Assembly (NCBI GenBank): GCA_001792535.1
Contig: MGGS01000008.1
Location: 11,016-75,015, forward strand
Length of the DNA: 64,000 nucleotides
Direction: 5' to 3'
From: Candidatus Woesebacteria bacterium RIFCSPHIGHO2_02_FULL_42_20
GTDB lineage: Bacteria; Patescibacteriota; Microgenomatia; UBA8517
Part shown: positions 30,740 to 46,016 of the stretch, one piece after another
How positions within the stretch are numbered: position 1 is the stretch's first letter
How the letters are laid out: each line of letters begins with the position of its first letter
Position numbers and translations under genes: made by a program
The notes under the pieces: generated by a model
The model's input: the letters and a program-made list of their open reading frames with translations, nothing else
Database searches by the model: none
What the model was told of the DNA's origin: nothing

Positions 30740-32833
30740 TTGAAGGACTACATGGGTAGTGTAAATAAGCCTAAAAATTTCCATGATTTTACCGCGCTGT
30801 TGAGTTTGGCGGCTATAGTACTGGCGATTTTTGTGGGGGTAAACGGTTATTTGGTTTCTCCTTCACAAAAAACAGTTATACCAAAAGCAAAAGCTGCTCA
30901 ATCTGCCAAAACTCCATTCAAATTTATGAGTGGCGTGAGTCGGGCTCGTGCACCGGACTTGCGGGTCAATCCTGTACCCCCGGCAACGCGGCAGTATCTG
31001 GAAGGGTTGGCCAGGAATTACGACCTGATATTTCCCTTGAGGGCTACATGGGAGCAGGACGGAACAAAGACATACGCTACATGGGTATACCCGATCCTCA
31101 AAAACCTCAACCCGGATATTTATCTTCAAGAATATGCCAACCCGAGGAACTGGGGAGGAAATGTTTTTGAGCAAGAGGAGATCCCGGAATTGTGGTACTT
31201 GCATGATCCCGTCAGTTCAAACAGGATAGAAGATCGAGTAGTAACTTTTTGGTGGACTATTAATCCCGATGTGAACGCCCATAACGAATGGGTGTATGAC
31301 ATGGGGAATGTAAATTTCAGGAACTTCTTTGCCCAAAAAGTTGTATTTGCCCTCCAACAGGGGTTAGACGGACTGTGGATGGATAACGCAGGACCTCCGT
31401 CAGGTGATGATAAGTATGTTATGCCCATCAAACGCTTTCGGGATGGAGTGGTCATGAACCCGCTAAATCCCCGCACCGGGAAGACATACACCGTACTTGA
31501 ACAATACCAGGAGTATCTGGCAATGGCACAGACGGTGAGAACTGCGGTTGACCAAGCATTTCCCAGCGGATTGTCGAAGAACGGATTGCCAATTCTCCTT
31601 CAACCGAACGTGGGCTCGGGGATAAGTGACTTGGAGTGGAACGTAGTTGAACAATATAAAGCGGTGTTGTCAGAAGGAGGGGGTTGGTTTGCTCATTCAG
31701 ATATGGCCACATATTCACAAGCGCGCTGGAATCGGGATGTGGACACGACAGCGGAGGTAATGCGGCGAAAACTACCGATGGTGTATTTGGGTAAGGCATG
31801 GGGTGATAGCCAACCATGGCCGGGTACCAGCCGGTTGATGTTTGCATACGCAAGCGCTTTGCTGGCAGCCGGTGCTCCCGGAGATCAGTTTTATTTTCGC
31901 CATGCTTCGGGAGAGTATGAAGCATGGCCGGGATTTAATGTAGATATCGGTTATGCTAAAGGAAATTATTTTCAGTGGCCGGGGACAAATAATGTGTTCG
32001 CAAGATGGTTTGATAGAGCATTGGTACTGGTGAATCCATCGGCAACAGCGGAAACGCTGAATCCCGGTTTGACATACCAACCTTTTGTGGATTATTCAGA
32101 CAGAAACGGGGGTGGAGGACTGGACTGGAGGGGATTGGGTGCAGAGACGGCCGCGTCACTGACGATTCGGGGTTACGAGGCGGCGATTTTGGTAACAGAT
32201 CAATCTCCAGTTTTCTTGCCTACTCCTAGGCCAACCGCTCCCGCTACTCCCGCTCCCACTCCAACCCCTCTTAATTATGACTTTGATGTTCAGTGTTTCT
32301 CATACGAACCGGGGAGCTGTACTGCTCCCAATGAAAATGAGCCTTGTCCACCCTGTTGGGAGCGGGAAGGAAGTTGCCCTGGGACTCTTTCAATGGGCCA
32401 ACAGTGCAGAGACTTCCGGTTTACTTGTAGACATATACCCGGTTGTGTAGCTCCTACACCGGAAATCGGAGTAAAAGCCTTTGGAGCACCCAAAGCAACC
32501 TCTCCAGCTTTATATTGTGATGCATCGGGCAATCCTACTACAAACCCAACAGGCCTCCTTTATACCGCACTGGGGTGCATTGATTTTGGAAGCCCGGGTG
32601 GAGTAGGAGTAGCAATAACTATGCTTAGAGCGGGAGCATCGATAGTAGGCGGAATTGCCTTCCTTCTCATCATCTTTGGCGGATTTAAAGTAATGACTTC
32701 ACAAAACGATCCCGAACGCCTGCAGTCAGGCAAAAATGTAATATCTGCGGCCGTCATCGGCTTAGCCTTCGTCCTCTTTTCAGTCATCATCCTTAAAGTA
32801 ATTGGAGTAGATGTGCTTGGATTGGGGTTATAA
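30740..32833 (+). CDS. Large surface protein: N-terminal TM anchor, ~450-aa putative (beta/alpha)-barrel polysaccharide-hydrolase-like domain, Pro/Thr linker, Cys-rich module, C-terminal two-helix membrane tail (conjugative/T4SS-pilin-like)
   Basis: GLDGLWMDNAGPP-type segment, PTPRPTAPATPAPTPTP linker, a 12-Cys block (CFSYEPGSCTAPNENEPCPPCWEREGSCPG...) and a terminal two-helix hydrophobic tail. Domain assignments are tentative. Confidence 0.55.
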   Translation: MKDYMGSVNKPKNFHDFTALLSLAAIVLAIFVGVNGYLVSPSQKTVIPKAKAAQSAKTPFKFMSGVSRARAPDLRVNPVPPATRQYLEGLARNYDLIFPLRATWEQDGTKTYATWVYPILKNLNPDIYLQEYANPRNWGGNVFEQEEIPELWYLHDPVSSNRIEDRVVTFWWTINPDVNAHNEWVYDMGNVNFRNFFAQKVVFALQQGLDGLWMDNAGPPSGDDKYVMPIKRFRDGVVMNPLNPRTGKTYTVLEQYQEYLAMAQTVRTAVDQAFPSGLSKNGLPILLQPNVGSGISDLEWNVVEQYKAVLSEGGGWFAHSDMATYSQARWNRDVDTTAEVMRRKLPMVYLGKAWGDSQPWPGTSRLMFAYASALLAAGAPGDQFYFRHASGEYEAWPGFNVDIGYAKGNYFQWPGTNNVFARWFDRALVLVNPSATAETLNPGLTYQPFVDYSDRNGGGGLDWRGLGAETAASLTIRGYEAAILVTDQSPVFLPTPRPTAPATPAPTPTPLNYDFDVQCFSYEPGSCTAPNENEPCPPCWEREGSCPGTLSMGQQCRDFRFTCRHIPGCVAPTPEIGVKAFGAPKATSPALYCDASGNPTTNPTGLLYTALGCIDFGSPGGVGVAITMLRAGASIVGGIAFLLIIFGGFKVMTSQNDPERLQSGKNVISAAVIGLAFVLFSVIILKVIGVDVLGLGL

Positions 32834-34005: not shown

Positions 34006-34404
34006 TCAGTGAATTAGAAGGTTTCTAAGTTTTGGTGCTTTTTGAAATCGATTGGCCAGGTCTTTTGTGATTATTTCCTCTTTTCCCAATAGGGCCACAA
34101 CGTCAACTGCACTATCTCGCCCGGGAAGTTCCAAGGCCGATGCAATATTCATTGCGATATCAGTACATATTTCAACGGCGGTGTGAAGTCTGTGATTGAC
34201 CAGGTGCTGAATATCGCGGCTTGTTTCGATTTGATTTAGACTACTTTTGTCTAAACATAAAACTCCAATGTCGATGTCACTTTTAGATGACTGGGTCCCT
34301 TTGGAGTAGGAACCAAAAATATAGGCTGCGACAGCATAAGACTCTTTGGCCAGTAAAGTTTCTATCTGTTTAATAACTTTGTGATCAAGCTTAAATTTCA
34401 TCAA
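34006..34404 (-). pseudogene. Chimeric MNT-HepT fusion remnant (N-terminal nucleotidyltransferase antitoxin half + C-terminal half of HepT toxin truncated in the Rx4HxY motif)
   Basis: N-terminal YIFGSYSKGTQSSKSDIDIGVL is the NTase motif. The C-terminal HTAVEICTDIAMNIASAL...RNLLIH aligns with the HepT at 43177 (LQVAIESCIDMVTMVIAAL...GLRNVLVHECVD) but ends before the catalytic Tyr. Confidence 0.55.
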
Positions 34405-34463: not shown

Positions 34464-35759
34464 GTGATGAAGAAATTTAAAAAAGATCTCTCGCTTCCAA
34501 AGGGAACTGTTATTCCCAATCACATCTCAATCATTTGTGATGGCAATGGCCGCTGGGCCAGATCCCGTGGTCTTCCGGTTGCCCGGGGCCACGAAGCCGG
34601 CGCAAAGGCCCTAAAAGAATTGGTACGCAACTGTAGAGACTTGGGAGTGCACACATTGACTTTGTGGGGTTTCTCGACCGAAAACTGGGGCCGTCCCGAA
34701 GACGAGGTTATACAAATTATGAAACTGGTCAAAAGAACCATAGAGGAGACTTTGGATGAAGCTAAAAAAGAAGGCGTACGGTTCATACATCTGGGTAGAA
34801 AGGACAGAATACCAAAGGAACTATTAAATCTTATAACCAAAGCTGAGAATGAAACCAGAAATAACTCGAGATATGTTTTTAATTTGGCACTTGATTATGG
34901 TGGGCATGACGAGATATTGAGGGCCATCAGGAAGTTAGTTGAAGACGGTGTCAAACCAAAAGATATTGATGAGCAAAAATTCTTGAAATATCTGGATACC
35001 GGTGATCAACCCTATCCTTACCCCGATCTTTATATCAGGACTTCAGGGGAACTGAGAACTAGCGGGTTTTTAATTTGGCAAAGCGCATATTCAGAATTTT
35101 ACTTCGAGCAGGACCACCTTCCTGATATCAATATTGATAAACTCAAAGCAGCTATTCTTGATTATTCAAGACGCCGACGACGGTTCGGTAAAAAAGATAA
35201 AGCTATTAGTTTTAAGTTCGACCCTTCAATGGTGGCAAAATTGGAACTTGGTTGGCGGCACGCCCTAGCCATGGGGGAAGGGGATAGATTCAGAGACCTT
35301 GTGGTCCGTTATGTGAGTGAGCACTACGGGCTTTCCAAAGAATTGGCAAAAGTGGCCGGCAAAGCGCTCGCCAAAGCGATTTTGTATGGTGAAAATAAGG
35401 AGTGGGACGAGGCAAAGCGGGCGCTTAAGGGTTTGTATGAAATAGTCAAAAAGACTTTGGGTTTGGCATTTGAACCGGATTTGGTCGCTTCCCTAGAAGT
35501 AAATCTCTGGCGAGTCAATGGCAATGCCAGTGAAACTCAGGAAGGTTTGATGATCGAGGAGCAATACAAACAGCTTTATGCCGAAACATATAGAATTTCC
35601 AATTACCAAATAAGCAAAGCCGCGCACTTAGCAGCATTAGCCACTGCCGAGAGGGACCTTGCCATTAAAGAAACAGGTCTAAAGGCAGAACTTCATTGGG
35701 CCAAATCACAGGATTATACCGAGCGCTTCTATAGAGCTTTGAAGGAGAGAATAGCCTAA
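34464..35759 (+). CDS. uppS: Undecaprenyl-diphosphate synthase (cis-prenyltransferase) with a ~190-aa C-terminal extension of unknown function
   Basis: HISIICDGNGRWA, WGFSTENWGRP and the RTSGE..R.SGFLIWQSAYSEFYF pattern identify UppS. UppS is normally ~250 aa; this ORF is 431 aa with a helical C-terminal domain. Confidence 0.85.
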   Translation: MMKKFKKDLSLPKGTVIPNHISIICDGNGRWARSRGLPVARGHEAGAKALKELVRNCRDLGVHTLTLWGFSTENWGRPEDEVIQIMKLVKRTIEETLDEAKKEGVRFIHLGRKDRIPKELLNLITKAENETRNNSRYVFNLALDYGGHDEILRAIRKLVEDGVKPKDIDEQKFLKYLDTGDQPYPYPDLYIRTSGELRTSGFLIWQSAYSEFYFEQDHLPDINIDKLKAAILDYSRRRRRFGKKDKAISFKFDPSMVAKLELGWRHALAMGEGDRFRDLVVRYVSEHYGLSKELAKVAGKALAKAILYGENKEWDEAKRALKGLYEIVKKTLGLAFEPDLVASLEVNLWRVNGNASETQEGLMIEEQYKQLYAETYRISNYQISKAAHLAALATAERDLAIKETGLKAELHWAKSQDYTERFYRALKERIA

Positions 35760-35773
35760 GCTCAAATTTTTTT

Positions 35774-35808
35774 GCATGTTGACATAACATGCAACACTTT
35801 GTTATCTT
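35774..35808 (+). promoter_or_regulatory. Promoter (TTGACA-18-TATCTT) overlapping a 19-bp palindrome GCATGTTGACATAACATGC, upstream of an Xis-like HTH gene
   Basis: Both the promoter hexamers and the palindrome are read directly from the sequence. Confidence 0.4.
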
Positions 35809-35873: not shown

Positions 35874-36083
35874 ATGGCAAATAAGAAAGATCTAAAACTG
35901 GAAAATCTCCCTGATCTTCTCACTGTCCGCGAAGTTGCAGAGTTATTGCGGGTTTCTCCTCTTACCATCAAGCGTTGGGGCAAGCGCGGTAAACTTCCGG
36001 CAATTAGGATTAACTCCCGGGGGGATCGGCGCTACAAAAAAGAGGCGGTGCTGTGGCTTCTGGGGATGCAGAGCAAGGACTAG
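35874..36083 (+). CDS. Excisionase/MerR-like helix-turn-helix DNA-binding protein
   Basis: LLTVREVAELLRVSPLTIKRWGKRGKLPAIRIN...RRYKKEAVLWL matches the HTH_17 / Xis-family pattern. Confidence 0.55.
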   Translation: MANKKDLKLENLPDLLTVREVAELLRVSPLTIKRWGKRGKLPAIRINSRGDRRYKKEAVLWLLGMQSKD

Positions 36084-36145
36084 ACAGGTAACTACCAGTC
36101 TGTAGTATAATTACCCTTAATTTCTGTTGATTTCCTGGCATTACT

Positions 36146-37054
36146 ATGTTGAAAAAGATTGGATTGTTGTTTGCTGCGGTTTTAACCATAAATTCGCTCT
36201 TCGCGGTCAAACCGCAGTTTGTTCACGCGGCTAGTGCCTTGCCAACTATTTCGTCATCACCCTCTCCCATTCCGTCGCCCCAACCTACTTCCGTACCGAC
36301 TCCGGTGCTCAGAGCTGATTTAACCCAAAAGTCCGAAGAAACCTCAGGGCACTTAGAGAGGCTTTTGGAAGAACAAGTTTTGGGTCCTGTCTGGCCGGTA
36401 AATCCTCTCAAATACGCTATTCGTGCATCAATTGCCTCGGGTGTACCGGCAAATACAATAGTTTTACTTTTGCTTTTGCCGGTAATTGCCTTTGTCATTG
36501 CCGCCTCTCGGCACATTGTGGGGCTTCGGGGTTTCGGTATATTTCTTCCCGCGGCTCTGTCTGTTGTGTTTGTGGCTTTGGGGCCGATTATCGGTATAGG
36601 TTTATTTTTATTAATTGTTCTTTTGTCTACGACCACTCGGTTAGCTCTAAGAAAGTTTAAAATTCAGCTTCAGTACCTTCCCCGAATGGCTCTTATTCTC
36701 TGGTCGGTGGTTGTGGGAGTGTTGGGAATGCTTTTCTTGTCCCCTTTCCTGGGCGGCTTTGTTTTTGGAAACATTTCAATCTTTCCGGTTTTAATTCTTG
36801 CCCTTTTGGCCGAAGACTTTACCAAGACCCAAATAGGCAAGAGTGCCAAGACAGCTATAAACTTAACAACCGAGACTCTGATTTTGGCCCTTATGTCCTA
36901 TATCTTATTGACTTTAAAGACGATACAGGAATTTGCACTTCTTAATCCTGAAGTACTTCTGCTTTTAACTGCCGCAGGTGACGTACTTTTGGGCCGGTAT
37001 ATTGGACTTAGACTTAGAGAACTTTGGCGGTTTCGAAAGCTTTTTAAAAATTAA
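36146..37054 (+). CDS. Seven-TM membrane protein (signal peptide + Pro/Ser-rich spacer + 7 helices), first gene of the ATP-grasp operon
   Basis: N-terminal signal, a PSPIPSPQPTSVPTP stretch, then seven hydrophobic helices. It lies 6 bp upstream of the first ATP-grasp gene. Confidence 0.5.
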   Translation: MLKKIGLLFAAVLTINSLFAVKPQFVHAASALPTISSSPSPIPSPQPTSVPTPVLRADLTQKSEETSGHLERLLEEQVLGPVWPVNPLKYAIRASIASGVPANTIVLLLLLPVIAFVIAASRHIVGLRGFGIFLPAALSVVFVALGPIIGIGLFLLIVLLSTTTRLALRKFKIQLQYLPRMALILWSVVVGVLGMLFLSPFLGGFVFGNISIFPVLILALLAEDFTKTQIGKSAKTAINLTTETLILALMSYILLTLKTIQEFALLNPEVLLLLTAAGDVLLGRYIGLRLRELWRFRKLFKN

Positions 37055-37060
37055 CGTTTT

Positions 37061-38398
37061 ATGAAGGTTTCATCGGTACTAGGTCTAAATGCCAGGACTA
37101 AACTTTTTTCTTACCCTTATAATTCTAAAAAAGGCAAAAGAATCGCAAGGTCGAAGATATCGACATATAGAGTATTGAAAAAAGCACAGATTCCCACTCC
37201 CGCAATTTTTAAAAGGTTTAGGACTACTCATGATGTTTATGATTTTAATTGGGATAGTCTTCCGGCATCATTTGCTGTAAAACCAAGCCGCGGCCTTGGC
37301 GGCGAGGGGATAATCGTTGTCAAAAAAAGAGCAAAGGAGCTTGGATTTTGGATAACCATCCAGAAAAAAAGAATTGGAGTTGGTGACCTTAAGCTTCACG
37401 TAATGGACATTTTGGAGGGTGCGTATAGCCTTGGAAATTACCCGGACGTGGCTTTTATTCAGGAGTTCGTCGACCGGCACAATGCATTCAGGAAATATAG
37501 CTTTAGGGGTACTCCTGATATCAGGATAATTGTCTTTAATAAAGTGCCTGTCATGGCAATGTTGCGCCTTCCAACAAAAGAATCCGGTGGCCGGGCTAAT
37601 CTACACCAGGGAGCGCTGGGACTCGGAGTGGATATTACGACAGGGATTACCACAAAAGCCGTATACAACAGTAATCTTATAAGGTATAAGCCGGGAACTG
37701 AAAGGAAGCTTAACGGAATAAAGATTCCTCAATGGGAGGAGATTTTGAAAATTGCCGTTTCCTGTCAGGAAGTTTCCAGTCTGGGCTATTTGGGGGTGGA
37801 TATCGTACTTCACCCCGAAAAAGGCCCCATGGTACTGGAGCTCAATTCCCAGCCGGGGTTGCAGATTCAGCTTGCGAATATGGCGGGATTAAAAAAAAGG
37901 CTGGAGAGAGTTGAAGACTTGCATGTAAGGGACGTCGAACACGGGGTAAATATTGGTAAGGCTTTGTTTGGCGAGAGATTTGCCGGCAGAGTCAAAAAAG
38001 ATAAAGAAGTTAAAAAAATAAGCGTTTGGGAAGAAATAACGCTGGTTTCGGATACGGGTAAGAAAGTAAGAGTACTTGCCAAAGTCGACACGGGTGCCTG
38101 GAGGACGTCGATAGATAAAGAGTTAGCAGCAAAACTTGGTATTCTTAAGAAAGAGAACATCCTCTGGATGAGGAAAATACGTACTTCATTGGGTGTTGTA
38201 GAAAGGCCGGTTATTAACTTAAAGTACTATCTATCGGGTACAAAAATTTCGACAATTGCAAGTATATCGAATAGAACCAAGATGAGGGCGCCTATTATCA
38301 TAGGTAGAAGGGATATCCAAGGTTTTTTGGTTGTTCCGGGTATTGAAGACAAACCACATCATTGGGTTCCGCCGAAGTGGAATGCTACCATCAACTAA
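37061..38398 (+). CDS. RimK-like ATP-grasp ligase (alpha-L-glutamate-ligase-related, TIGR02291-like) fused to a C-terminal retropepsin-like putative zinc/aspartyl protease domain (PF05618-like)
   Basis: ATP-grasp segments FAVKPSRGLGGEGIIVV, IQEF, LGYLGVDIVLHPEKGPMVLELNSQPGL. The C-terminal ~130 aa (VLAKVDTGAWRTSIDKELAAKLGI...IIIGRRDI) resemble the RimK-associated clan-AA protease domain. Confidence 0.65.
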   Translation: MKVSSVLGLNARTKLFSYPYNSKKGKRIARSKISTYRVLKKAQIPTPAIFKRFRTTHDVYDFNWDSLPASFAVKPSRGLGGEGIIVVKKRAKELGFWITIQKKRIGVGDLKLHVMDILEGAYSLGNYPDVAFIQEFVDRHNAFRKYSFRGTPDIRIIVFNKVPVMAMLRLPTKESGGRANLHQGALGLGVDITTGITTKAVYNSNLIRYKPGTERKLNGIKIPQWEEILKIAVSCQEVSSLGYLGVDIVLHPEKGPMVLELNSQPGLQIQLANMAGLKKRLERVEDLHVRDVEHGVNIGKALFGERFAGRVKKDKEVKKISVWEEITLVSDTGKKVRVLAKVDTGAWRTSIDKELAAKLGILKKENILWMRKIRTSLGVVERPVINLKYYLSGTKISTIASISNRTKMRAPIIIGRRDIQGFLVVPGIEDKPHHWVPPKWNATIN

Positions 38399-38400
38399 AA

Positions 38401-39309
38401 ATGGCAAAAATATTAATACTTACTTCAAAATTAACTGATACGAAGAAATCGTTTGTAAATTTGGTCAAGCAAAACTTTCAAGATGAACAAACTGAAATCT
38501 CGATCGAGGAAATCAGCACTATTTGTTTAAGCTTAAGTAAAAATGAAATCTCTTTTAAAGTATCGGGGGTTGATATTTGCAGATATGACTTAGTTTTTTT
38601 GAGGGGTATAACAAGCAGAAATATTTTTATTGCTACGACTGTAGCGATGGTGTTAGAAAAACTTGGTATAAAATATTTCGACACACTTTACAGTGAAGCG
38701 GGTCCGCATAGAAGTAAACTTGGTTCACTTGTCAAACTTGTTGGAAGTACAATTTGTATACCTAAAACGCTTTATTTTGCCGACAAAAATTATACAAAAC
38801 ACTATAGGGAAATTTCATGCGGGCTCGGTAGTCCGTTTGTTGCCAAAGAAATGTCTCTTCAAAAGGGAAAAGGGGTACATCGGATTTATTGTTTGAAAGA
38901 TCTAAGGACTTTACCGGCTCAAACGAAGAGGGGTAGTGAAAATGAATACTTTTTTCAGAAGTTCATAGAGAAGGACCATGAATACAGAATTTTGGTTTTA
39001 GGCAAAAAAATTGGAGTTTGGGAAGAGAAAATTTCCGCAAGTAAAGATGAATTTAGAAATAATATTGCCTTGGGTGCTAGAGAAATTTTTTTAAACGTTA
39101 AAGACATCCCTTCCAAATTGGAAACGCTAGCTATAAACGCAGCAGATTCTTTGGGAATTCAAGTTGCCGGAGTAGATGTGATAGTGGATGTCCACGGAAA
39201 GTATTTTGTATTGGAAGTAAACAGAGGTCCTGGATTAACGTACGACGAATCGGTTTCACCTGAATTTAAGGCAATAGCCGAATTTTTGGAAAAAGAATGT
39301 CGAAAATAG
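38401..39309 (+). CDS. RimK-family ATP-grasp ligase (paralog 2)
   Basis: ATP-grasp pattern: FVAKEMSLQKGKGVHRI, HEYRILVLGKKIGVWEEKIS...NIALGAREIFLN, GIQVAGVDVIVDVHGKYFVLEVNRGPGL. Confidence 0.6.
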   Translation: MAKILILTSKLTDTKKSFVNLVKQNFQDEQTEISIEEISTICLSLSKNEISFKVSGVDICRYDLVFLRGITSRNIFIATTVAMVLEKLGIKYFDTLYSEAGPHRSKLGSLVKLVGSTICIPKTLYFADKNYTKHYREISCGLGSPFVAKEMSLQKGKGVHRIYCLKDLRTLPAQTKRGSENEYFFQKFIEKDHEYRILVLGKKIGVWEEKISASKDEFRNNIALGAREIFLNVKDIPSKLETLAINAADSLGIQVAGVDVIVDVHGKYFVLEVNRGPGLTYDESVSPEFKAIAEFLEKECRK

Positions 39310-40232
39310 GAATTGCTTTTTCAAATAACACGGACACGGATCCTTTTATCCGGTTGGGCAAAAAAAGGTCTGTTTATGAAGATCTTATAATGAAATGTGT
39401 TGTAAAGAGCCTTAGTTGTGTTGTGGTTACAACAAGGACCTATAAAGGAAACGCACTTTTCAAAGGGTTTTGGGAATTTATAGGAGAAGGGCATTTGAAA
39501 TTCCGGGATAAGCTAATCAAATTAGACTTAGTTTATGACAGGTCGGCAAGCAAGTTTTTTCCCGCCAAATCTGATACGCTCCGGGTTGTGGACAATTACG
39601 ACTTCAAAAGATTGTCGTGCGACAAATGGCTGGTATACAAAGAAATAGGCGAGTATATGCCGAAAACTTATTGGATTGGTAGACAAATTAATCTCATGAA
39701 AGTATTGCCTGAAGTAAGAACCGATTTTATAGTTTTAAAACCTAATAACGGGTTGAAGGGTCTTGGAATATTTATCGGATCCAAAGTAGATTCGTTGAAA
39801 TTTGATTTTTTAGAAAAGAGACCTCTTTATATTGCTCAAGAATTTGTAGACACCAAGAAGGGTATTGAAGGGATTGTCAGCGGTTTTCATGATTTGCGGA
39901 TGGTTGTAATTAATCAAAAAATCGTCTGGTCCCATGTCCGGACCCCCTCTCAAGGAAATTTGAAAGCTAATGTAGCCCAAGGAGGCAGAATAATGGAAGT
40001 GGATACAGAAATCCTTCCGGAAAAGATTAAACAAGTTACTCAAAAAATTGCAAAAGAGCTGTATACGAGATATGATAACCCATTATTCAGCGTAGATTTC
40101 GGGGTGGACGCAAATGGTAAGGCCTTTGTTTTTGAAATTAACGACCAAGTCGGTTTCCCAAAGCCTGGTATGAGAGCTAAAGATTTATTTTTGGATGAAA
40201 TGATTGTGAATTTTAAATCTAAAATAAAATGA
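39297..40232 (+). CDS. ATP-grasp ligase (paralog 3)
   Basis: FIVLKPNNGLKGLGIFI, DLRMVVINQKIVWSHVRTPSQGNLKANVAQGGRIMEV, LFSVDFGVDANGKAFVFEINDQVGFP. Overlaps the previous gene by 13 nt. Confidence 0.6.
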   Translation: MSKIGIAFSNNTDTDPFIRLGKKRSVYEDLIMKCVVKSLSCVVVTTRTYKGNALFKGFWEFIGEGHLKFRDKLIKLDLVYDRSASKFFPAKSDTLRVVDNYDFKRLSCDKWLVYKEIGEYMPKTYWIGRQINLMKVLPEVRTDFIVLKPNNGLKGLGIFIGSKVDSLKFDFLEKRPLYIAQEFVDTKKGIEGIVSGFHDLRMVVINQKIVWSHVRTPSQGNLKANVAQGGRIMEVDTEILPEKIKQVTQKIAKELYTRYDNPLFSVDFGVDANGKAFVFEINDQVGFPKPGMRAKDLFLDEMIVNFKSKIK

Positions 40233-41125
40233 AAATCATTGATTTTATAGTATTTACAGGTGGTCCAAGAGCATATGCCCCAAACAGGCTCAGGAAAGAA
40301 GCTAAAAAAAATAACATAATTTTTCGTGCTTATCTTTATAAATATTTAAACATCAAACTAAATGGAGCTCCCCAAAACTATATTTTTTCGTATAAGGGCA
40401 GAGAACTTCCTCCAGCCAAGGGTGTCTTTTTGCGTGCCCTGGGGGAAATGGCGGAGTATAATCCTTATAAATATTTCCTAATAGATTGGTTCGAATCAAA
40501 AAGTGCAAAGGTGATTAATTCGGCATCTTTTAAAAAGTGGCCGTCGTTAGATAAAACATCACAACATTTGGTGTATTTAAAAAACGATATTCCTTTCATT
40601 AATTCAGCTGTCTTCGGCTCCCAGGAATCTGCCACTGCGTGGGCAAACCCAAGTAGGTTTCCGTTTATTGTTAAAAGTAATGTTGGAAGTTGCGGCACCG
40701 AAGTTTATAAAATAAAAAGCAGACGCGCCTTGAAAAGGCTACTAAAACCTTTCAATAAAAGGACAGTCAAGGGATTGCTTTTTCAGGAATTTTTGCCCGG
40801 TGGTGAAGACCTTAGAGTAATTGTATTAAATGGCAAGGTACTTGGTGCAATGAAAAGAATTGCGAGTAAAGGCAACTACCTGACTAACTATTCGCGGGGC
40901 GGAAGCGTTGAAAATTATGATTTAACAGGGGATGCTAGCGCTTCGAAAATTGCACTAAAAGTAACCGATACATTTTCTCTGGATTATTGTGGGGTGGATT
41001 TGATGAGGGGAAAAGACGGGGGCTGGAAAGTTTTGGAAGTTAATAGGGCTTGTCAGTTTGAAGGTTTTGAAAAAGCAACCGGAGTGAATGTGGCAAAGAA
41101 AGTTTTGGAATTTGCCGTCGGTTAA
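40229..41125 (+). CDS. RimK-family ATP-grasp ligase (paralog 4)
   Basis: FPFIVKSNVGSCGTEVYKI, DLRVIVLNGKVLGAMKRIASKGNYLTNYSRGGS, YCGVDLMRGKDGGWKVLEVNRACQFEGF. Overlaps the previous gene by 4 nt. Confidence 0.65.
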   Translation: MKIIDFIVFTGGPRAYAPNRLRKEAKKNNIIFRAYLYKYLNIKLNGAPQNYIFSYKGRELPPAKGVFLRALGEMAEYNPYKYFLIDWFESKSAKVINSASFKKWPSLDKTSQHLVYLKNDIPFINSAVFGSQESATAWANPSRFPFIVKSNVGSCGTEVYKIKSRRALKRLLKPFNKRTVKGLLFQEFLPGGEDLRVIVLNGKVLGAMKRIASKGNYLTNYSRGGSVENYDLTGDASASKIALKVTDTFSLDYCGVDLMRGKDGGWKVLEVNRACQFEGFEKATGVNVAKKVLEFAVG

Positions 41126-41366
41126 TAATCTTCTTGGATAAAAAATCCGCCCCGTAATTAGCTAGTAGTAGTTGAATTCAATTGTTTCACTTAAAGCTGC
41201 AAGAACAAGCTCGTGCTTGAAGGACGCAACCGATTTATTATTGAGTCTAGCTTTTCTATACAGTTCTTGGAGATCTTCTTCTGGAAAAATTTCAGTAGCC
41301 GTCTTATCTGGAAGGGAATTGATGTAACTATCGCCGACATGTATCAAACCTCGCCGGTATAATTCA

Positions 41367-41396
41367 GGGACTTGAGTGCATCGATGCACTCAAGTC
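41367..41396. repeat. Perfect 30-bp palindrome GGACTTGAGTGCATCGATGCACTCAAGTCC
   Basis: Read directly. It lies in the intergenic region between the ATP-grasp operon and rplL. Confidence 0.9.
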
Positions 41397-41643
41397 CGAA
41401 GCCCAACGACCAGGATTATTTTCTATTCAGGAGATGTTACCCGGATGGAAAGTGGCCGGACCGTTCAGGATATCGCACTCAGAAAGGGCGTGATGGCCGT
41501 GCTACAAAAGGGCAGGGGTCTTGGAGTCCTGATCAATATTGTTAAGCAGGCCTTAGGCCTGCTGTAGTTTCTCTTTCTTGTCCCAACCCGTCAGGGGTTA
41601 TATTTAGAAGTGTCTTTCTATATTATTTAACCCCTGACAATTT

Positions 41644-42102: not shown

Positions 42103-42638
42103 CCCCTTTTACCGGCTTCACTTAATACAAAAATTAGCTTTTGCATATTTGCATTTAACACACTTACTAATCCGTATTCTGGTGCCATCAAGTTTCCAAG
42201 CACCTGGCCTAATAAGACATCTTTTCCCGGAAGAGTTGAAATTTTAACCAAACTTTCGCTGTCTTGGAATTTTCCCTCAATCACTCCGACTTTAAACTTC
42301 GGAAGCGGTTCGCCGGTTACACTGACGGATTCCTTAGCGAATTTACCCAATATCTGGATAGGGGAGACCGGGTCGGTGCCCGACGTGATAACTGCTGTCT
42401 GGCCGGTCAAAACTGTGTCTGCTAAAGTCTCTTTTGGAAGTTTGGCATCCTCTGCAGCCAATTTAAACAAAGTATTTTTGACAACAAGCATTTTGGAGTT
42501 GCTTTCTTTAAACCTTTTTTTAAGGTCCTGCTGGGCCTTGACGGTCAGCCCCGAAAAGTCAACCAACACGACCGACTTAGCGTTTGCTAATTCATCGCTT
42601 AATTTCTTGACAAAAACCGGTTTGTCTTTCTTGTTCAT
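42099..42638 (-). CDS. rplJ: 50S ribosomal protein L10
   Basis: KSVVLVDFSGLTVKAQQDLKKRFKE... Start placed at MNKKDKPVF. Overlaps rplL by 4 nt. Confidence 0.85.
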   Translation of the reverse strand: MNKKDKPVFVKKLSDELANAKSVVLVDFSGLTVKAQQDLKKRFKESNSKMLVVKNTLFKLAAEDAKLPKETLADTVLTGQTAVITSGTDPVSPIQILGKFAKESVSVTGEPLPKFKVGVIEGKFQDSESLVKISTLPGKDVLLGQVLGNLMAPEYGLVSVLNANMQKLIFVLSEAGKRG

Positions 42639-42722
42639 AAAAAACCAAAAAACGCGCTTCGAGGCGCGTAAAAATATCTGCCTCGGCAAGACTTATTTTT
42701 ATGCTTGCTGTCTTAGGACAAA

Positions 42723-43217
42723 ATGAATTATATAGTCAAATTAATGTGTAATCAAGACATGAAATTAACCGGGGAACAGAGGCAAAAATTTGACCGTTTC
42801 GTTCGCAAAATCTATCCGTGTGTAATTGCGGTTTATCTGCATGGCTCTCGGGTTAAAGGATATTCTATTTCAACAAGCGATACGGATGTTGCCGTTGTGG
42901 TTGATAAAAAGCATGACATTCTAAGGAGAGAGCTCGAAATGATGTCTGAAGTGGGAAGTAATTTACCATTTTCCAATTCCGACGTGAGAGTCGTGGACGA
43001 AAGTAGCTCAAAAATTTTTTTGCGGAGTATAATCAAAGACTCCAGCGTTCTATATAAAAGAAGTGAGTTAGACAGGATTCGCTTTGAAGTTGGGGCTATG
43101 AGCAAGTTTTACGACCAAGGGTACATACGCGAGATTTATAAGTATTTTTTATATAAACAGATTAAGGAGGATAAATATGATCGTGGACAAAGTGACCTTA
43201 ACCAGGCTCTTGGATAA
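42723..43217 (+). CDS. MNT-type nucleotidyltransferase (antitoxin of HepT/MNT module)
   Basis: LHGSRVKGYSISTSDTDVAVVV is the GS...D.D NTase motif. Confidence 0.65.
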   Translation: MNYIVKLMCNQDMKLTGEQRQKFDRFVRKIYPCVIAVYLHGSRVKGYSISTSDTDVAVVVDKKHDILRRELEMMSEVGSNLPFSNSDVRVVDESSSKIFLRSIIKDSSVLYKRSELDRIRFEVGAMSKFYDQGYIREIYKYFLYKQIKEDKYDRGQSDLNQALG

Positions 43218-43602
43218 ACTTAAGCATAAACTGGCCAAGCTCGAGACAATGGAATTTGGCCTGGATGAAATTCGAGAGGACGAAGATATACAGGGTTTGG
43301 TAGATAGAAGGCTGCAGGTTGCTATTGAATCTTGTATTGATATGGTGACCATGGTTATCGCTGCGCTTTCGCTTAAGCGGCAAGACGAAGCTGCAGATGT
43401 TTTTCGCGAATTAGCACGTGCTAATATTATCTCAAAGAAACTAAGCGAAAAATTAGTAGACGCTTGTGGTTTGCGTAACGTTTTGGTTCATGAATGCGTC
43501 GACGTCGATTACAATGTTGTCTACAAGACTAAAAATGAGGATTTAGATAATTTGCGAGAGTTTGCAAAAGCGGTATCAAAGCTACTCGAAAAGGATAAAT
43601 GA
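43177..43602 (+). CDS. HepT-like (DUF86) toxin, RNase
   Basis: GLRNVLVHECVDVDYNVVY is the Rx4HxY motif. The 5' end overlaps the MNT gene. Confidence 0.75.
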   Translation: MIVDKVTLTRLLDKLKHKLAKLETMEFGLDEIREDEDIQGLVDRRLQVAIESCIDMVTMVIAALSLKRQDEAADVFRELARANIISKKLSEKLVDACGLRNVLVHECVDVDYNVVYKTKNEDLDNLREFAKAVSKLLEKDK

Positions 43603-43648
43603 AGGCTGGTCAGTTGCAAGGATGAAATATAAAGTATAGAATAACGAC

Positions 43649-44128
43649 ATGGTAGATATGGTTGGTGAAGCATTACCTCAGGTTGAGCAGGCACCCCGCG
43701 TTGGTTTGGCGGAAAGAGCTGTTGGATTGGGCGGACCAGTCGCGGACAGAGCTTCGAAGGTCTGGGATGCTGTTATAAAAGGTGGGAGAGCTGCATTAGA
43801 CGAATTAATTGAAGCACCTCTTAGAGCTAAAGTGGGGTTGTCAGTCGTGCTTGCTGAAACAACTAATCTTATTTTAGCTAAAGCCGCTTTTGCCGAAGGC
43901 CTAAGCGGACAGGTTTTAGAGCAAGCTAAAGATTTGGCTCAAATGCAGGACGCAGTGATATTGGCAGGTGCGTTGGTGGGCGGTTTGATAGGTGGTGGTA
44001 TTGGCTCGGTGGCAGGCAAAGGCAAGTCTGGTTTTGCATTAGGAGCCGTTGCAGGAGCGGGTTTAGCAGCTGCAGCACGCGATGGAATGCCGATTATTAT
44101 TGATACAGCTAAAAGGATGGGGGGATAA
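43649..44128 (+). CDS. Hypothetical Gly/Ala-rich (glycine-zipper-like) protein, GC-rich
   Basis: AGALVGGLIGGGIGSVAGKGKSGFALGAVAGAGLAAAA. The region 43.6-46.3 kb has higher GC than the flanks. Confidence 0.35.
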   Translation: MVDMVGEALPQVEQAPRVGLAERAVGLGGPVADRASKVWDAVIKGGRAALDELIEAPLRAKVGLSVVLAETTNLILAKAAFAEGLSGQVLEQAKDLAQMQDAVILAGALVGGLIGGGIGSVAGKGKSGFALGAVAGAGLAAAARDGMPIIIDTAKRMGG

Positions 44129-44133
44129 AGACT

Positions 44134-44442
44134 ATGAATAAAGTAGCCGATGTTGTTTCAAAATTTAGTTTCAAAAAGAAAGAGGCCGGTTATTCTCAAG
44201 AAGAAATAGATAAAACAATTTTTATTGCTGCCAACGTTACAATGGAGCGAGTAATCAATAGTTTGCAAGATCAAAAGAGCGGAATTACAGATAAGGTGAA
44301 AGACTTAGGTAAAAGCGTTTTGGGAGATCCTAAAAACGATGCAAAATGGCAGGAAGCGCAAGCTTTAGTTGTTAATGACAAAGGCGAAAGTCTTGAAACT
44401 GTAATTGCAGGCGAACTTGAGGATTTTTTGGGGAAGCTCTGA
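44134..44442 (+). CDS. Hypothetical protein
   Basis: 102-aa ORF lying 6 bp after the previous gene. Confidence 0.3.
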   Translation: MNKVADVVSKFSFKKKEAGYSQEEIDKTIFIAANVTMERVINSLQDQKSGITDKVKDLGKSVLGDPKNDAKWQEAQALVVNDKGESLETVIAGELEDFLGKL

Positions 44443-44445
44443 AGT

Positions 44446-45477
44446 TTACTTTCTAGTCAATCTTCCCACTATACTGGTTGGCTGAAGTCTTCGTTCAATA
44501 GTTTGCTTTGTTTCTAGTGGAATACCTAGCCTTTCTCGAACATCGGTTGGTAAGGGAACATCAAGCGTTCCAGCCGAAGGCTCCGTAGAAAACACAGTCC
44601 TTGATTGATACAGCTGACCTTCTTCTTTTGGGTCAATAACCGGCCTGAGTATAACTTGGCCATCCCATTTAGCCTTCTTGTCATTAGCATCACGCATGCT
44701 GACAGTTGTGGCCTCGTATACTTTCATATTGTCGGCGCCGTTTGGCCCTGTGCCGATTGCGACTACTGAACTAGCTTTGACATCATCTGTATTGAAAAAT
44801 ATTGGAACATCTCTACCGGTAAATTTACCTACCCCTTTAAATATTATTGGCGTGCCGTCTTTTGTTACAGCCTCCATGGTGAGGTTTTCTCTTCTGGCTT
44901 CTGGACTGATTACGTTTGCAGCACCTCTTGCTTCGGCATCTTCAGCGACTTGGCGTAAGCCAGGCGGCAGGGAAGCTTTTTGCGCTTCCCATTGGGCGTG
45001 AAGTTCAGCTTCTATTCTTTGTTGTTCAGTTCTGGCAGTCTTACCGGCCTGAAGTGAAGTGTTGACTGTTATTGCTCGACGAGCTGTGGCATGCCTTCTT
45101 GCGAAGTCTAGTACGCCTTTGTCGGTTGGTTCCACAGAAGCCCCAGCCGCAGCTTCCGTTCCGTAAGTTTGGATATTTTGGCTAAGGTTTTGTTCAAGCA
45201 TTTGTATTCGTTCTTCTTCTGTCACGTTTTGTGGAGTTCTCCAGCCCTTTACGTATTGAAGTCTTTGCGCCAGAGAACCACGTTCAGCCGCGGTTTTAGC
45301 TCGAAGAGCTGTTGGTGTTCCCTCATAAGCCATTCTCAATTTTGCGACGGGCTGCCTTAAAAAGACAATCTTTACAGGAGCTTCTACTAACGCCCCGCCG
45401 GGCTGTCTTATTTCTGTGGCAACCGGCACGGCAGCGTTGCCCCCTAGTTCCACTGGTGTTTCTCCGGGTCCGCTCAT
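44446..45477 (-). CDS. Hypothetical protein (343 aa), GC-rich
   Basis: Long ORF. Its start overlaps the upstream 180-aa ORF by 4 nt. Confidence 0.4.
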   Translation of the reverse strand: MSGPGETPVELGGNAAVPVATEIRQPGGALVEAPVKIVFLRQPVAKLRMAYEGTPTALRAKTAAERGSLAQRLQYVKGWRTPQNVTEEERIQMLEQNLSQNIQTYGTEAAAGASVEPTDKGVLDFARRHATARRAITVNTSLQAGKTARTEQQRIEAELHAQWEAQKASLPPGLRQVAEDAEARGAANVISPEARRENLTMEAVTKDGTPIIFKGVGKFTGRDVPIFFNTDDVKASSVVAIGTGPNGADNMKVYEATTVSMRDANDKKAKWDGQVILRPVIDPKEEGQLYQSRTVFSTEPSAGTLDVPLPTDVRERLGIPLETKQTIERRLQPTSIVGRLTRK

Positions 45478-46016
45478 TGTTCTATAGATACCAAATTGGG
45501 TACGCTAGTCAAATTCACTAAGTCTTCGGGAATACCTATGGCCACCAGCTCAATTTCTTTTTCATTGGGGTTCTCAGTTGGTTTTAAATCAAAAGAAAAA
45601 GCAAGTGCTTGGCCTTCGGTGTCCTTTAGTTGTTCGAATGCGGTGTTAAGCTTAAGCTCAAAAGCTTCAACTCCCTGTTTGTCTAGCGGACTAGTTAGCA
45701 TCTCCAAGCCGGTTTTGAGAACTAAAAGCGCGCTATCGTAGTCGTCAGTCGCAAAGAAATATTCTTTGGTCAGCTCACTAAAAACAGCCTGGGCACCAGC
45801 TTTTGTTTGGGTTGCCAAATTTGGCTCGTAAAGAAGGTCACTTAATGTTCGTGCGCGTTCAATCGGATCAAAATTTGGGTGGGGGTTCTCAATTTTTCCC
45901 TGAAGTTGTTTGACCCTTTTTACGACTCGGCCAACAAACGGCTCGGCTTCCTTTTGATTAGCGCTTTCTATTCGATATACCTCTATTCCAAAGCTTTTAC
46001 GCATTTCAGGTGTCAT
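45474..46016 (-). CDS. Hypothetical protein (180 aa)
   Basis: Forms a translationally coupled pair with the 343-aa ORF. Confidence 0.4.
   Translation of the reverse strand: MTPEMRKSFGIEVYRIESANQKEAEPFVGRVVKRVKQLQGKIENPHPNFDPIERARTLSDLLYEPNLATQTKAGAQAVFSELTKEYFFATDDYDSALLVLKTGLEMLTSPLDKQGVEAFELKLNTAFEQLKDTEGQALAFSFDLKPTENPNEKEIELVAIGIPEDLVNLTSVPNLVSIEQ

What the first reader, a model, noticed from the sequence alone, without database searches (positions are those of the whole stretch)
36146..41125. Operon of a 7TM protein plus four tandem RimK-like ATP-grasp ligases, the first fused to a retropepsin-like protease domain
Five tightly packed genes on the + strand, separated by a 6-bp gap, a 2-bp gap, and overlaps of 13 nt and 4 nt. 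The first is a 7-helix membrane protein. The second is an ATP-grasp of the alpha-L-glutamate-ligase-related type carrying a C-terminal PF05618-like (RimK-associated clan-AA / 'zinc protease') domain. Three further diverged ATP-grasp paralogs follow.

A three-component 7TM + RimK-like ATP-grasp + PF05618-protease neighbourhood has been predicted from comparative genomics as a peptide/amide-ligation system of unknown substrate. Here the protease is fused onto the ligase, and the ligase is expanded to four paralogs, which suggests stepwise addition of several residues (poly-amino-acid tail, short nonribosomal peptide, or modification of a protein/cofactor).

No substrate gene is identifiable. The upstream Xis-like HTH (35874..36083), with a palindromic operator in its promoter, and the 30-bp palindrome downstream (41367..41396) may delimit or regulate the unit.
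Basis: partly seen in the sequence, partly recalled or inferred. Interest (0 to 1): 0.85.

Follow-up and report, generated by a model that had tools for sequence, protein, structure and literature searches.

The report
Rlo-like peptide ligase–protease membrane operon
A candidate-phyla-radiation (Microgenomates) bacterium carries a compact, rearranged version of the recently described Pseudomonas "Rlo" envelope-stress system: a 7-helix membrane protein, an amino-acid ligase fused to its own trimming protease, and three extra ligases. The fusions help show how this still unexplained system is wired.

Summary
Five co-directional, tightly packed genes lie at 36146-41125:
- a signal-peptide + 7TM protein (PF14402);
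- a TIGR02291/PF14397 (RloC-type) ATP-grasp ligase with a C-terminal compact RloA/RimB-type retropepsin domain (invariant DTGA);
- three RimK-like ATP-grasp ligases.

All four ligases keep the ATP/Mg residues.

The system is not unknown. It is a rearranged relative of the RloABC operon of Pseudomonas (mBio 2025) and of RimK/RimB. It differs in three ways:
- the 7TM protein lacks the inactive-transglutaminase domain;
- the protease is fused to the cytoplasmic ligase instead of being secreted;
- RimK-like accessory ligases are appended.

In 80 related CPR loci the 7TM + fusion pair is near-invariant (74/80 adjacent). The accessory ligases vary in number (0-3) and belong to about 9 families in shuffled combinations. 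The window's trio is rare and has low GC.

Elsewhere the same protease domain is fused outside the membrane to the 7TM protein, or occurs in a protease-7TM-ligase triple fusion. This indicates that the three parts work as one machine.

Most likely function: membrane-coupled synthesis and trimming of a glutamate-rich peptide. The product and acceptor are unknown.

Verdict: a new variant of a known kind, of moderate interest.

The parts
36081..36108 (+). Promoter-like site (TAGACA-16-TAGTAT) in the 62-bp spacer between the HTH gene and O1. It is a candidate operon promoter.
   Evidence: Consensus scan only. The number of such sites in the region is not above the shuffled expectation, so this is weak.
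36146..37054 (+). O1: RloB-like 7TM membrane protein without the inactive-transglutaminase domain. It has a signal peptide (res 1-~28, VHA|AS), a disordered P/S-rich linker (24-55), a conserved ~45-residue extracytoplasmic stub, and 7 TM helices (102-301). Predicted topology is N-out/C-in, with a strongly cationic cytoplasmic face and tail.
37061..37969 (+). O2 N-terminal part (res 1-303): RloC/TIGR02291-type ATP-grasp ligase. It lacks the N-terminal pre-ATP-grasp domain. Catalytic residues are K74, Q134-E135-F136, R155, N180, D247, E260 and N262.
   Evidence: PF14397 E 5e-65; TIGR02291 E 7.9e-79 over positions 9-293 of 317. Aligned to RimK D248/E260/N262. AF2 pLDDT 84. Foldseek best hits are RimK and ArgX/LysX.
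38012..38335 (+). O2 C-terminal part (res 318-425): compact RloA/RimB-type retropepsin domain. It carries DTGA at res 343-346 (nt 38087-38098), K341, R382, R405 and IIGRRD at 413-418. It follows a low-confidence linker (res 307-315).
   Evidence: Alignment A1. Profile against PDB: 9G59 4e-8, 9G58 2e-7, 2PMA 3e-5, ApRick 2.5e-3. 25/25 orthologs hit PF05618. By spacing, the residues correspond to RloA K46, D48, R114 and R137.
38401..39309 (+). O3: accessory RimK-like ATP-grasp ligase (family 'C'). Catalytic residues are intact: K149, Q186, R196, N221, D259, E272, N274. It has the lowest GC of the operon (0.352).
39297..40232 (+). O4: the most diverged accessory ATP-grasp ligase (family 'H'), always found after a family-C gene. 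Catalytic residues are intact: K148, Q181-E182-F183, R201, N225, D267, E280, N282.
   Evidence: No PDB sequence hit at E<=0.01.
40229..41125 (+). O5: accessory ligase that is a bona fide RimK-family alpha-L-glutamate-ligase-type enzyme (family 'G'). Catalytic residues are intact: K149, Q186-E187-F188, R196, N220, D257, E270, N272.
   Evidence: TIGR00768 165.5 bits, above its cut-off of 143.4. Full-length alignment to E. coli RimK 5ZCT, E 2.9e-19..
35874..36083 (+). Neighbouring BldC/MerR/excisionase-type HTH gene. It is probably not a dedicated component of the system.
   Evidence: It is 79-94% identical across Woesebacteria-like loci, but adjacent to the operon in only about 16 of 80 loci, kilobases upstream in about 10, and absent in distant loci.

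Best explanation
This is a CPR (Microgenomates/Woesebacteria-type) version of the Rlo/Rim family of non-ribosomal peptide-tail systems.

**Proposed mechanism**
- The cytoplasmic RloC-type ATP-grasp ligase (O2, N-terminal part) uses ATP to join amino acids into an alpha-linked chain. The amino acid is most likely L-glutamate. The chain is either free or attached to an unidentified acceptor carboxylate.
- The ligase works at the cationic cytoplasmic face of its obligate partner, the RloB-like 7TM protein (O1).
- The retropepsin domain fused to the ligase C-terminus dimerises between ligase subunits. Like RimB and RloA, it cleaves Glu-rich chains. This sets chain length or recycles the product, and may stimulate the ligase as RimB does for RimK.
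- The three downstream RimK-like ligases (O3-O5) are lineage-variable accessories. They probably extend or decorate the same chain with further residues.
- O1 either passes the product to the cell surface or couples the system to the envelope.

**Shown here**
- domain identities;
- intact catalytic residues;
- conserved equivalents of the poly-Glu-binding residues of RloA;
- the invariant 7TM-ligase pairing;
- Rosetta-stone fusions linking all three parts.

**Inferred**
- glutamate as the substrate;
- the peptide nature of the product;
- cooperation between the accessory ligases and the core;
- export by O1.
For: 1. **Family identity of the core.** PF14402, TIGR02291/PF14397 and PF05618 all match. 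The NCBIfam RloB and RloA3 models are the named best hits.

2. **Catalytic competence.** All four ligases keep the ATP and Mg ligands. DTGA and IIGRRD are invariant in 25 orthologs.

3. **Substrate-binding residues.** The O2 protease keeps K341, R382 and R405. By spacing these equal RloA K46, R114 and R137. Mutating R114 or R137 abolishes poly-Glu cleavage and complementation in Pseudomonas.

4. **Published genetics and biochemistry.**
- Loss of rloB or rloC suppresses the loss of the RloA proteases, so the ligase and the 7TM protein make something the protease must remove (PMC12239564).
- RimB cleaves poly-Glu and stimulates poly-alpha-Glu synthesis by RimK (PMC11957791).

5. **Synteny.** The 7TM gene lies directly upstream of the fusion gene in 74/80 loci from diverse Microgenomates, usually with a -4 to +14 nt junction. 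Accessory ligases always follow immediately downstream on the same strand (0: 8 loci, 1: 22, 2: 32, 3: 1).

6. **Fusions elsewhere.** The following architectures occur: signal-protease-7TM, tandem protease-7TM, protease-7TM-ligase, and ligase-protease-MATCAP. Unfused ST-type ligase genes overlap the protease-7TM genes.

7. **Hints about chemistry.**
- A glutamate dehydrogenase gene sits directly downstream in one variant.
- MATCAP-type carboxypeptidases and three further ATP-grasps occur in another variant.
- O2 is very basic (net charge +37, pI 10.2), and O1 has about 17 K/R residues on its cytoplasmic face.
Against: - No product or acceptor is known, even for the Pseudomonas system.
- No substrate gene or conserved small ORF was found.
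- The window holds no gene with an acidic run or a poly-Glu C-terminus.
- Glutamate specificity is inferred only from homology and from the protease residues.
- The 7TM fold has no solved relative, so an export role is unsupported structurally.
- The protease is cytoplasmic here but extracytoplasmic in Pseudomonas and in the protease-7TM variants. The site of cleavage, and perhaps its role, may therefore differ between lineages.
- High basic charge is common in this genome (median ORF pI 9.0).
- Pfam describes PF14397 as sugar-transfer associated, which leaves room for a non-peptide acceptor.
Confidence: 0.55

Rival explanations
1. Envelope-polymer or peptidoglycan-precursor modification. The ST-type ligase and the accessory ligases would add amino acids to carboxylates of lipid-linked sugar or peptide intermediates at the membrane. 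O1 would act as the membrane platform or flippase.
For: - Pfam names PF14397 'sugar-transfer associated ATP-grasp'.
- The operon lies next to undecaprenyl-diphosphate synthase and a polyprenyl synthase in Woesebacteria-like loci.
- Rlo mutants in Pseudomonas show cell-shape and beta-lactam phenotypes, and the authors suspect a peptidoglycan link.
- In other variants the 7TM proteins carry extracytoplasmic domains: inactive transglutaminase, PKD, or the protease.
Against: - The UPPS neighbourhood is lost in Collierbacteria-type and other distant loci, so it looks like lineage synteny.
- The conserved protease keeps the poly-Glu-binding arginines, and a sugar-amide product would not need an endopeptidase.
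- No glycosyltransferase is in the operon.
Confidence: 0.15
2. Ribosomal or other cytoplasmic protein tail modification, as with RimK/RimB. The ligases would polyglutamylate S6 or another protein, the fused protease would remove the tails, and the 7TM protein would be a regulator that senses the envelope.
For: - O5 passes the RimK-family cut-off and aligns full-length to RimK.
- The fused protease is cytoplasmic, like RimB and RimBK.
- In Woesebacteria-like loci the operon converges on rplL-rplJ.
- One related genome encodes an S6 that ends in Glu.
Against: - The core ligase is RloC-type, not RimK-type.
- The obligate partner is a membrane protein, which is even fused to the ligase in P0349.
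- Adjacency to rplJL is not kept in distant loci.
- L7/L12 here ends in ...VELK, and the window holds no acidic-tailed protein.
- Eight loci have no RimK-like accessory gene at all.
Confidence: 0.12
3. The three downstream ligases are functionally independent paralogs that merely share a transcription unit with the 7TM + fusion core. For example, they could be cofactor or amino-acid-carrier ligases like MptN, CofF or LysX.
For: - Their number and family vary from 0 to 3 between close relatives.
- They have lower GC than the core (0.35-0.39 against 0.44).
- They score best against RimK, MptN and LysX models.
Against: - In 55 of 63 informative loci they sit immediately downstream on the same strand, often with overlapping stop and start codons.
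- The same multi-ligase theme recurs in an independently rearranged locus together with extra peptidases.
- No LysW-like carrier gene or cofactor genes lie nearby.
Confidence: 0.13
4. A RiPP (graspetide-like) cluster. The ATP-grasps would macrocyclise a ribosomal precursor, the protease would remove a leader, and the 7TM protein would export the product.
For: O3 and O5 give weak hits to graspetide maturase models (TIGR04187, 37 and 27 bits). A protease and a membrane protein are present.
Against: - The scores are about ten-fold below the cut-offs (350), and RimK-type models score much higher.
- No conserved precursor ORF was found in 80 loci.
- The protease belongs to the poly-Glu-cleaving RloA/RimB clade.
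Confidence: 0.03

Closest known systems
RloABC operon of Pseudomonas aeruginosa / Gammaproteobacteria (Lormand et al., mBio 2025, PMC12239564)
   Same: The same three domain families are present: the PF14402 7TM membrane protein, the TIGR02291/PF14397 cytoplasmic ATP-grasp ligase, and the PF05618 retropepsin with DTG and conserved poly-Glu-contacting K/R residues. They are encoded together in one operon.
   Different: - The 7TM protein lacks the periplasmic inactive-transglutaminase domain and has only a signal peptide, a P/S linker and a short conserved stub.
- The protease is not a separate secreted protein. It is fused to the C-terminus of the cytoplasmic ligase.
- The protease domain is about 27 residues shorter, because it lacks an insertion after the DTGA helix.
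- The gene order differs.
- One to three RimK-like ligases are appended.
- The host is a CPR bacterium, presumably without an outer membrane (background knowledge, not tested here).
- RloB was reported as 96% proteobacterial.
RimK/RimB (RimABK) and the RimBK hybrid of Desulfotalea psychrophila (PMC11957791)
   Same: A cytoplasmic ATP-grasp alpha-L-glutamate ligase is paired with, or fused to, a retropepsin-like endopeptidase that cleaves poly-Glu. O5 is a bona fide RimK-family member. A fusion of ligase and protease is already known.
   Different: - In RimBK the protease is N-terminal to a RimK-type ligase. Here it is C-terminal to an RloC-type ligase that lacks the pre-ATP-grasp domain, so this is an independent fusion.
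- Rim systems have no 7TM partner.
- The RimK target S6 is not implicated here.
Tubulin C-terminal tail code (TTL/TTLL ATP-grasp ligases with CCP and MATCAP peptidases). This is an analogy only.
   Same: Several ATP-grasp amino-acid ligases plus endo- and carboxypeptidases would build and trim an acidic peptide tail. A related CPR locus carries MATCAP-family domains fused to, and next to, the same ligase-protease protein.
   Different: No MATCAP gene is present in this window. No protein acceptor is known. The TTL Pfam hits are marginal (E 0.004-0.04).
LysX/ArgX, MptN and CofF (RimK-family ligases acting on carrier proteins or cofactors)
   Same: O3-O5 and the O2 model resemble them in sequence and fold.
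   Different: All scores are far below the equivalog cut-offs. No LysW-like carrier, lysine/arginine pathway genes or methanogenic cofactor genes lie nearby.

Membership tests
RloABC system | RloC: cytoplasmic ATP-grasp of the TIGR02291 / PF14397 type | tested here: met
   PF14397 219.9 bits (GA 31.4). TIGR02291 264.9 bits over nearly the full model, by far the best NCBIfam hit but below its curated 314.2 cut-off. No signal peptide or TM segment.
RloABC system | RloB: inactive transglutaminase domain fused to 7 TM helices | tested here: not met
   The 7TM part is present (PF14402 88.7 bits). The RloB model NF052267 matches only positions 312-507 of 508 (69 bits against a cut-off of 900). The N-terminal 100 residues are a signal peptide, a disordered linker and two short helices.
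RloABC system | RloA: separate retropepsin-like peptidase with an N-terminal signal peptide (secreted) | tested here: not met
   The only protease copy in the window is the C-terminal domain of the cytoplasmic ligase O2. It has no signal peptide.
RloABC system | Catalytic Asp (D48) and poly-Glu-coordinating K46/R114/R137 in the protease | tested here: met
   O2 K341, D343, R382 and R405 align with them. The spacings D->R of 66 and R->R of 23 are seen in the 9G58 alignment, and R->R of 23 in O2. All are invariant or near-invariant in orthologs.
RloABC system | Role in hypo-osmotic stress tolerance, with ligase/7TM loss suppressing protease loss | not testable with these tools
   This needs genetics. 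The organism is an uncultured CPR bacterium.
RimK family (TIGR00768) alpha-L-glutamate ligases | Score above the curated family cut-off, full-length ATP-grasp with pre-ATP-grasp N-domain, and Mg/ATP residues | tested here: met
   Met for O5 only: 165.5 bits against a cut-off of 143.4, and a full-length alignment to RimK 5ZCT. O3 (77.4), O4 (47.0) and O2 (55.6) fall below the cut-off, although their catalytic residues are intact.
RimK/RimB system | Acceptor is ribosomal protein S6 with a C-terminal Glu | not tested
   rpsF is not in the window. One related genome (L056) has an S6 ending in ...LIVIE.
RimBK hybrid | RimB domain at the N-terminus of a RimK-type ligase | tested here: not met
   The domain order is reversed (ligase 1-303, protease 318-425), and the ligase is TIGR02291-type.
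Clan AA retropepsin-like / PF05618 (RimB-like) peptidases | D-T/S-G-A active-site motif, second G-R-D/N-type motif, single-lobe beta domain that must dimerise | tested here: met
   DTGA 343-346 and IIGRRD 413-418 are invariant or near-invariant. The AF2 model shows a beta-rich domain at 318-425 with pLDDT about 85-90. PF05618 is hit by 25/25 orthologs. Dimerisation itself was not tested.
Graspetide (RiPP) ATP-grasp maturases | Adjacent precursor peptide gene and a maturase-type ATP-grasp | tested here: not met
   No conserved small ORF was found in 80 loci. TIGR04187/04184/04185 hits are 19-37 bits against cut-offs of 350-475.
D-Ala-D-Ala ligase / glutathione synthetase | Score above the family cut-offs | tested here: not met
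   Best Ddl hit 31.7 bits against 243. Best GshB hit 42.4 bits against 272.
Anti-phage defence systems (PADLOC) | Match to any defence-system protein model | tested here: not met
   No hits for any of the five proteins.

The most novel reading that the evidence does not exclude
The locus may encode a lineage-variable, non-ribosomal 'peptide code' machine. The core ligase would polymerise glutamate on the cytoplasmic face of the 7TM protein. Interchangeable accessory ligases (about 9 families; here C-H-G) would add different residues. In other lineages methyltransferases and MATCAP carboxypeptidases would act as well. The retropepsin would set chain length. The 7TM protein would thread the anionic peptide across the membrane to the cell surface of these ultra-small episymbiotic bacteria, giving each lineage a distinct surface or osmoprotective polymer.

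The fact that the same protease domain sits inside the cell in some lineages and outside in others would then be direct evidence that the product crosses the membrane through the 7TM protein.
Probability: 0.2. Interest if true: 0.8.

Novelty: new variant of a known kind. Interest (0 to 1): 0.55.

Why it matters
The biochemical product of the Rlo system is still unknown. In Pseudomonas that system matters for osmotic tolerance, biofilm formation and beta-lactam resistance.

The CPR variants give natural Rosetta-stone evidence that ligase, protease and 7TM protein act as one physical unit:
- ligase-protease;
- protease-7TM;
- protease-7TM-ligase;
- ligase-protease-MATCAP.

They also show that the protease can act on either side of the membrane. 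This constrains models towards a peptide that is made inside and is accessible outside.

The window's fusion protein is a compact, soluble, single-polypeptide ligase + protease. It would be a convenient reagent for identifying the product in vitro.

The core pair occurs in at least 255 hits, each confirmed by tblastn, in a one-genome-per-species collection; the 80 examined are mostly Microgenomates-type CPR genomes. Such genomes are small (background knowledge). Retention there suggests an important envelope or stress function in a group whose cell biology is poorly known.

Tried and rejected

2. **Search for a co-varying substrate or precursor ORF.** All-against-all blastp was run on unassigned ORFs of at least 30 aa around the operon in 80 loci. 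Apart from spurious ORFs overlapping those genes, it returned only ribosomal, NusG and SecE neighbours and a SAM-methyltransferase. No small conserved ORF was found. Very short or fast-evolving peptides would be missed.

3. **Acidic-tail candidates in the window.** None were found.

4. **rpsF.** It is not in the window. It was found in only one related locus.

5. **Apparent 7TM-ligase-protease single ORF in L054.** This is an artefact of a masked run of N.

6. **Defence-system and phage-family scans.** Negative, or only generic RimK-like hits.

7. **Rfam scan of 30-46 kb.** Only a sub-threshold L10 leader was found, and nothing at the palindrome.

8. **Iyer et al. 2009 (PMC3268129).** This is the original prediction paper. 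It is not held in the library, so its content is cited only through PMC12239564 and from memory.

9. **Unused searches.** The third large homology search and the metagenome scan were not run. The answers they could give (the spread of O3-O5) would not change the verdict.

Full report
**Observation**

The five ORFs are at the stated coordinates, with the stated junctions: +6, +2, -13 and -4 nt. The sequence comes from a Rifle-aquifer metagenome-assembled genome (GCA_001792075.1, contig MGFW01000005.1). The same locus is present on at least 24 other contigs. Its relatives are Woesebacteria and other Microgenomates-type CPR genomes.

Domain searches give the following.
- O1 is PF14402 '7TM_transglut' (88.7 bits). 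Against the NCBIfam RloB model it matches only the C-terminal 7TM part (positions 312-507 of 508).
- O2 is PF14397 (E 5e-65) and TIGR02291 (E 7.9e-79). It also has weak C-terminal hits to PF05618, RloA3 and gag-type aspartyl proteases.
- O3 and O4 are diverged RimK/YheCD-like ATP-grasps.
- O5 passes the RimK-family cut-off (165.5 bits against 143.4).

**The protease domain**

The single-sequence evidence was below the Pfam and NCBIfam cut-offs, so I aligned the last ~145 residues of 25 orthologs at 33-54% identity (A1).
- D-T-G-A is invariant apart from one conservative T->S substitution (T is near-invariant), and an IIGRRD-type second motif is conserved.
- All 25 members hit PF05618 (best E 3e-10).
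- The profile finds the two RloA crystal structures 9G59 and 9G58 at 4e-8 and 2e-7. It then finds Legionella 2PMA, ApRick and Ddi1. 9G58 and 9G59 are the structures deposited with the Rlo paper.

The residues that paper shows to bind poly-glutamate are K46, R114 and R137. R114A and R137A abolish activity and complementation. In the 9G58 alignment, D48 to R114 spans 66 residues and R114 to R137 spans 23. The same R-to-R spacing links O2 R382 ('ERPVI') and R405 ('NRT'), and K341 sits two residues before D343.

The CPR domain is a shortened version that lacks a ~27-residue insertion after the DTGA helix. AF2 models O2 confidently (pLDDT 84). The model shows an ATP-grasp at 1-303, a flexible linker at 307-315 and a beta-rich domain at 318-425. 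Its best structural matches are RimK and ArgX/LysX.

**The ligases**

All four proteins retain the equivalents of the following RimK features:
- the ATP-binding lysine;
- the QEF hinge;
- the R/N phosphate loop;
- the Mg ligands D248, E260 and N262.

O2 lacks the N-terminal pre-ATP-grasp domain that O3-O5 have. Hits to Ddl, GshB and graspetide maturases are far below their cut-offs.

**The membrane protein**

The AF2 model (pLDDT 80.8) and hydropathy and charge analysis show, in order:
- a cleavable-looking signal peptide;
- a disordered P/S-rich linker;
- a conserved ~45-residue stub;
- seven TM helices.

**Comparative genomics**

tblastn-confirmed relatives of the fusion protein were found at 255 hits in a one-genome-per-species collection, and 80 loci were examined.
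- The 7TM gene sits directly upstream on the same strand in 74/80 loci. The exceptions are contig ends or masked sequence.
- Downstream RimK-like ligases are variable. Of 63 loci with enough downstream sequence, 8 have none, 22 have one, 32 have two and 1 has three.
- These ligases fall into about 9 families that are used in different combinations: A; B-D; E-F; A-C; C-H; G. The combinations differ even among genomes whose O2 proteins are equally distant from the window's.
- The window's C-H-G trio is unique in the sample. Its genes have lower GC (0.35-0.39) than O1 and O2 (0.43-0.45) or the window mean (0.427, sd 0.036).
- A class-I SAM methyltransferase gene is inserted in the operon in 20 loci, but not here.
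- No conserved small ORF was found.
- The UPPS, HTH and rplL-rplJ neighbours are kept only in Woesebacteria-like loci.

**Other architectures of the same protease domain**

An exhaustive HMMER search with the O2 protease domain found 448 representatives. Besides stand-alone and O2-type proteins, these include:
- signal peptide-protease-7TM proteins (e.g. Chloroflexota);
- a tandem-protease-7TM protein;
- a protease-7TM-ligase triple fusion with an N-terminal membrane anchor;
- a ligase-protease-MATCAP protein.

Gene contexts support the same picture.
- The protease-7TM genes overlap an unfused ST-type ligase gene. In one case a glutamate dehydrogenase gene follows.
- The MATCAP variant sits in a PKD-7TM / ligase-protease-MATCAP / ATP-grasp / ATP-grasp / MATCAP / ATP-grasp operon.

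The three core parts are thus linked by fusion in every pairwise combination. The protease is extracytoplasmic in some lineages, as in Pseudomonas, and cytoplasmic in the window's lineage.

**Interpretation**

The closest known system is RloABC. In Pseudomonas, the secreted RloA proteases cleave stretches of at least 8 glutamates, and loss of RloB or RloC suppresses loss of the proteases. This implies that the ligase and the 7TM protein make something the protease must remove. In the related Rim system, RimB cleaves poly-Glu and stimulates poly-alpha-Glu synthesis by RimK. A RimB-RimK hybrid with the opposite domain order exists.

I therefore read the window as a rearranged Rlo-type module. 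It would carry out membrane-coupled synthesis of a Glu-rich alpha-peptide by O2, trimming by O2's own protease domain, and extension or decoration by the accessory ligases O3-O5.

The following are inferences, not findings:
- the substrate;
- the acceptor;
- export by O1;
- cooperation of the accessory ligases with the core.

The rivals are envelope-polymer modification, RimK-like protein-tail modification, independent paralogs, and a RiPP cluster. They are weighed in the report sections. None is excluded except, practically, the RiPP and Ddl/GshB readings.

**Flanking features**

- The HTH gene is real, but it is far more conserved than the operon and only variably adjacent.
- Its promoter-like site carries a hairpin at 35772-35794.
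- The perfect palindrome is at 41368-41397. It lies between a promoter-like site and a terminator-like hairpin, in a stretch that different annotators call differently. It has no Rfam match.
- Nothing ties either feature to the operon.

**Verdict**

This is a new variant of a known, still mechanistically unsolved system. It is widespread in Microgenomates and, as far as the searched literature shows, undescribed there.

Noticed in passing
window 41334-41575: A promoter-like site (CCGACA-18-TATAAT, 41334-41363) is followed by the perfect 30-bp palindrome (41368-41397), about 150 nt of GC-rich sequence and a terminator-like hairpin (41545-41563). The stretch folds with z = -4.3, partly because of the palindrome. 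It has no Rfam match. Annotators disagree: 63-aa or 40-aa ORFs on the + strand, or a 61-aa ORF on the - strand. It could be a small RNA or a small protein gene.
   Followed up: partly
window 42637-42735 (-): Sub-threshold match to the ribosomal protein L10 leader (RF00557, 36.9 bits against gathering 44), upstream of rplJ.
   Followed up: no
window 42723-54170: About 11.5 kb is inserted between rplJ-rplL and the rplA-rplK-nusG-secE part of the usual cluster. It holds nucleotidyltransferase/HEPN pairs (42723-43602 and 48269-49094). Several ORFs there (43649-48276) have no Pfam match.
   Followed up: partly
window 34464-35759 (+): The undecaprenyl-diphosphate synthase carries a ~190-residue C-terminal extension with no Pfam match. 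The long form (410-458 aa) is conserved in related genomes at about 50% identity.
   Followed up: partly
window 35874-36083 (+): The 69-aa BldC/MerR/excisionase-type HTH protein is 79-94% identical across Woesebacteria-like genomes. That is much higher than any neighbouring gene and suggests a housekeeping DNA-binding role.
   Followed up: partly
window 34006-34404 (-): A single 131-132-aa ORF has precomputed Pfam hits to both nucleotidyltransferase (NTP_transf_2/Polbeta) and HepT-like HEPN families. It may be a fused or degenerate toxin-antitoxin gene.
   Followed up: no
window 30740-32833 (+): A 697-aa protein has a sub-threshold T4SS-pilin-like C-terminus (24 bits against 26.6) and a marginal GHL15 hit.
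   Followed up: no
L046:10344-11090 and 19 other loci: A class-I SAM-dependent methyltransferase gene sits inside the operon, typically after the first accessory ligase. It occurs in 20 of 80 related loci and is absent from the window.
   Followed up: partly
L090:1870-10678: A CPR locus has the gene order PKD-7TM protein, ligase-protease-MATCAP fusion (800 aa), two ATP-grasps, a second MATCAP protein and a third ATP-grasp. This is an even larger multi-ligase, multi-peptidase version of the system.
   Followed up: partly
L086:6001-9695: A tandem (pseudo-dimeric) retropepsin x2-7TM protein is followed by an overlapping unfused ST-type ligase gene and then a glutamate dehydrogenase gene.
   Followed up: partly
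P0330 (539 aa): A class-I lysyl-tRNA synthetase carries the same compact retropepsin domain at its C-terminus. It is not known whether this is a real fusion or an assembly or gene-calling artefact.
   Followed up: no
L056:4993-5256 (-): Ribosomal protein S6 of a related Patescibacteria genome ends in ...LIVIE, that is, with a C-terminal Glu. The gene lies about 2 kb from that genome's 7TM + fusion pair, which has no accessory ligase.
   Followed up: no
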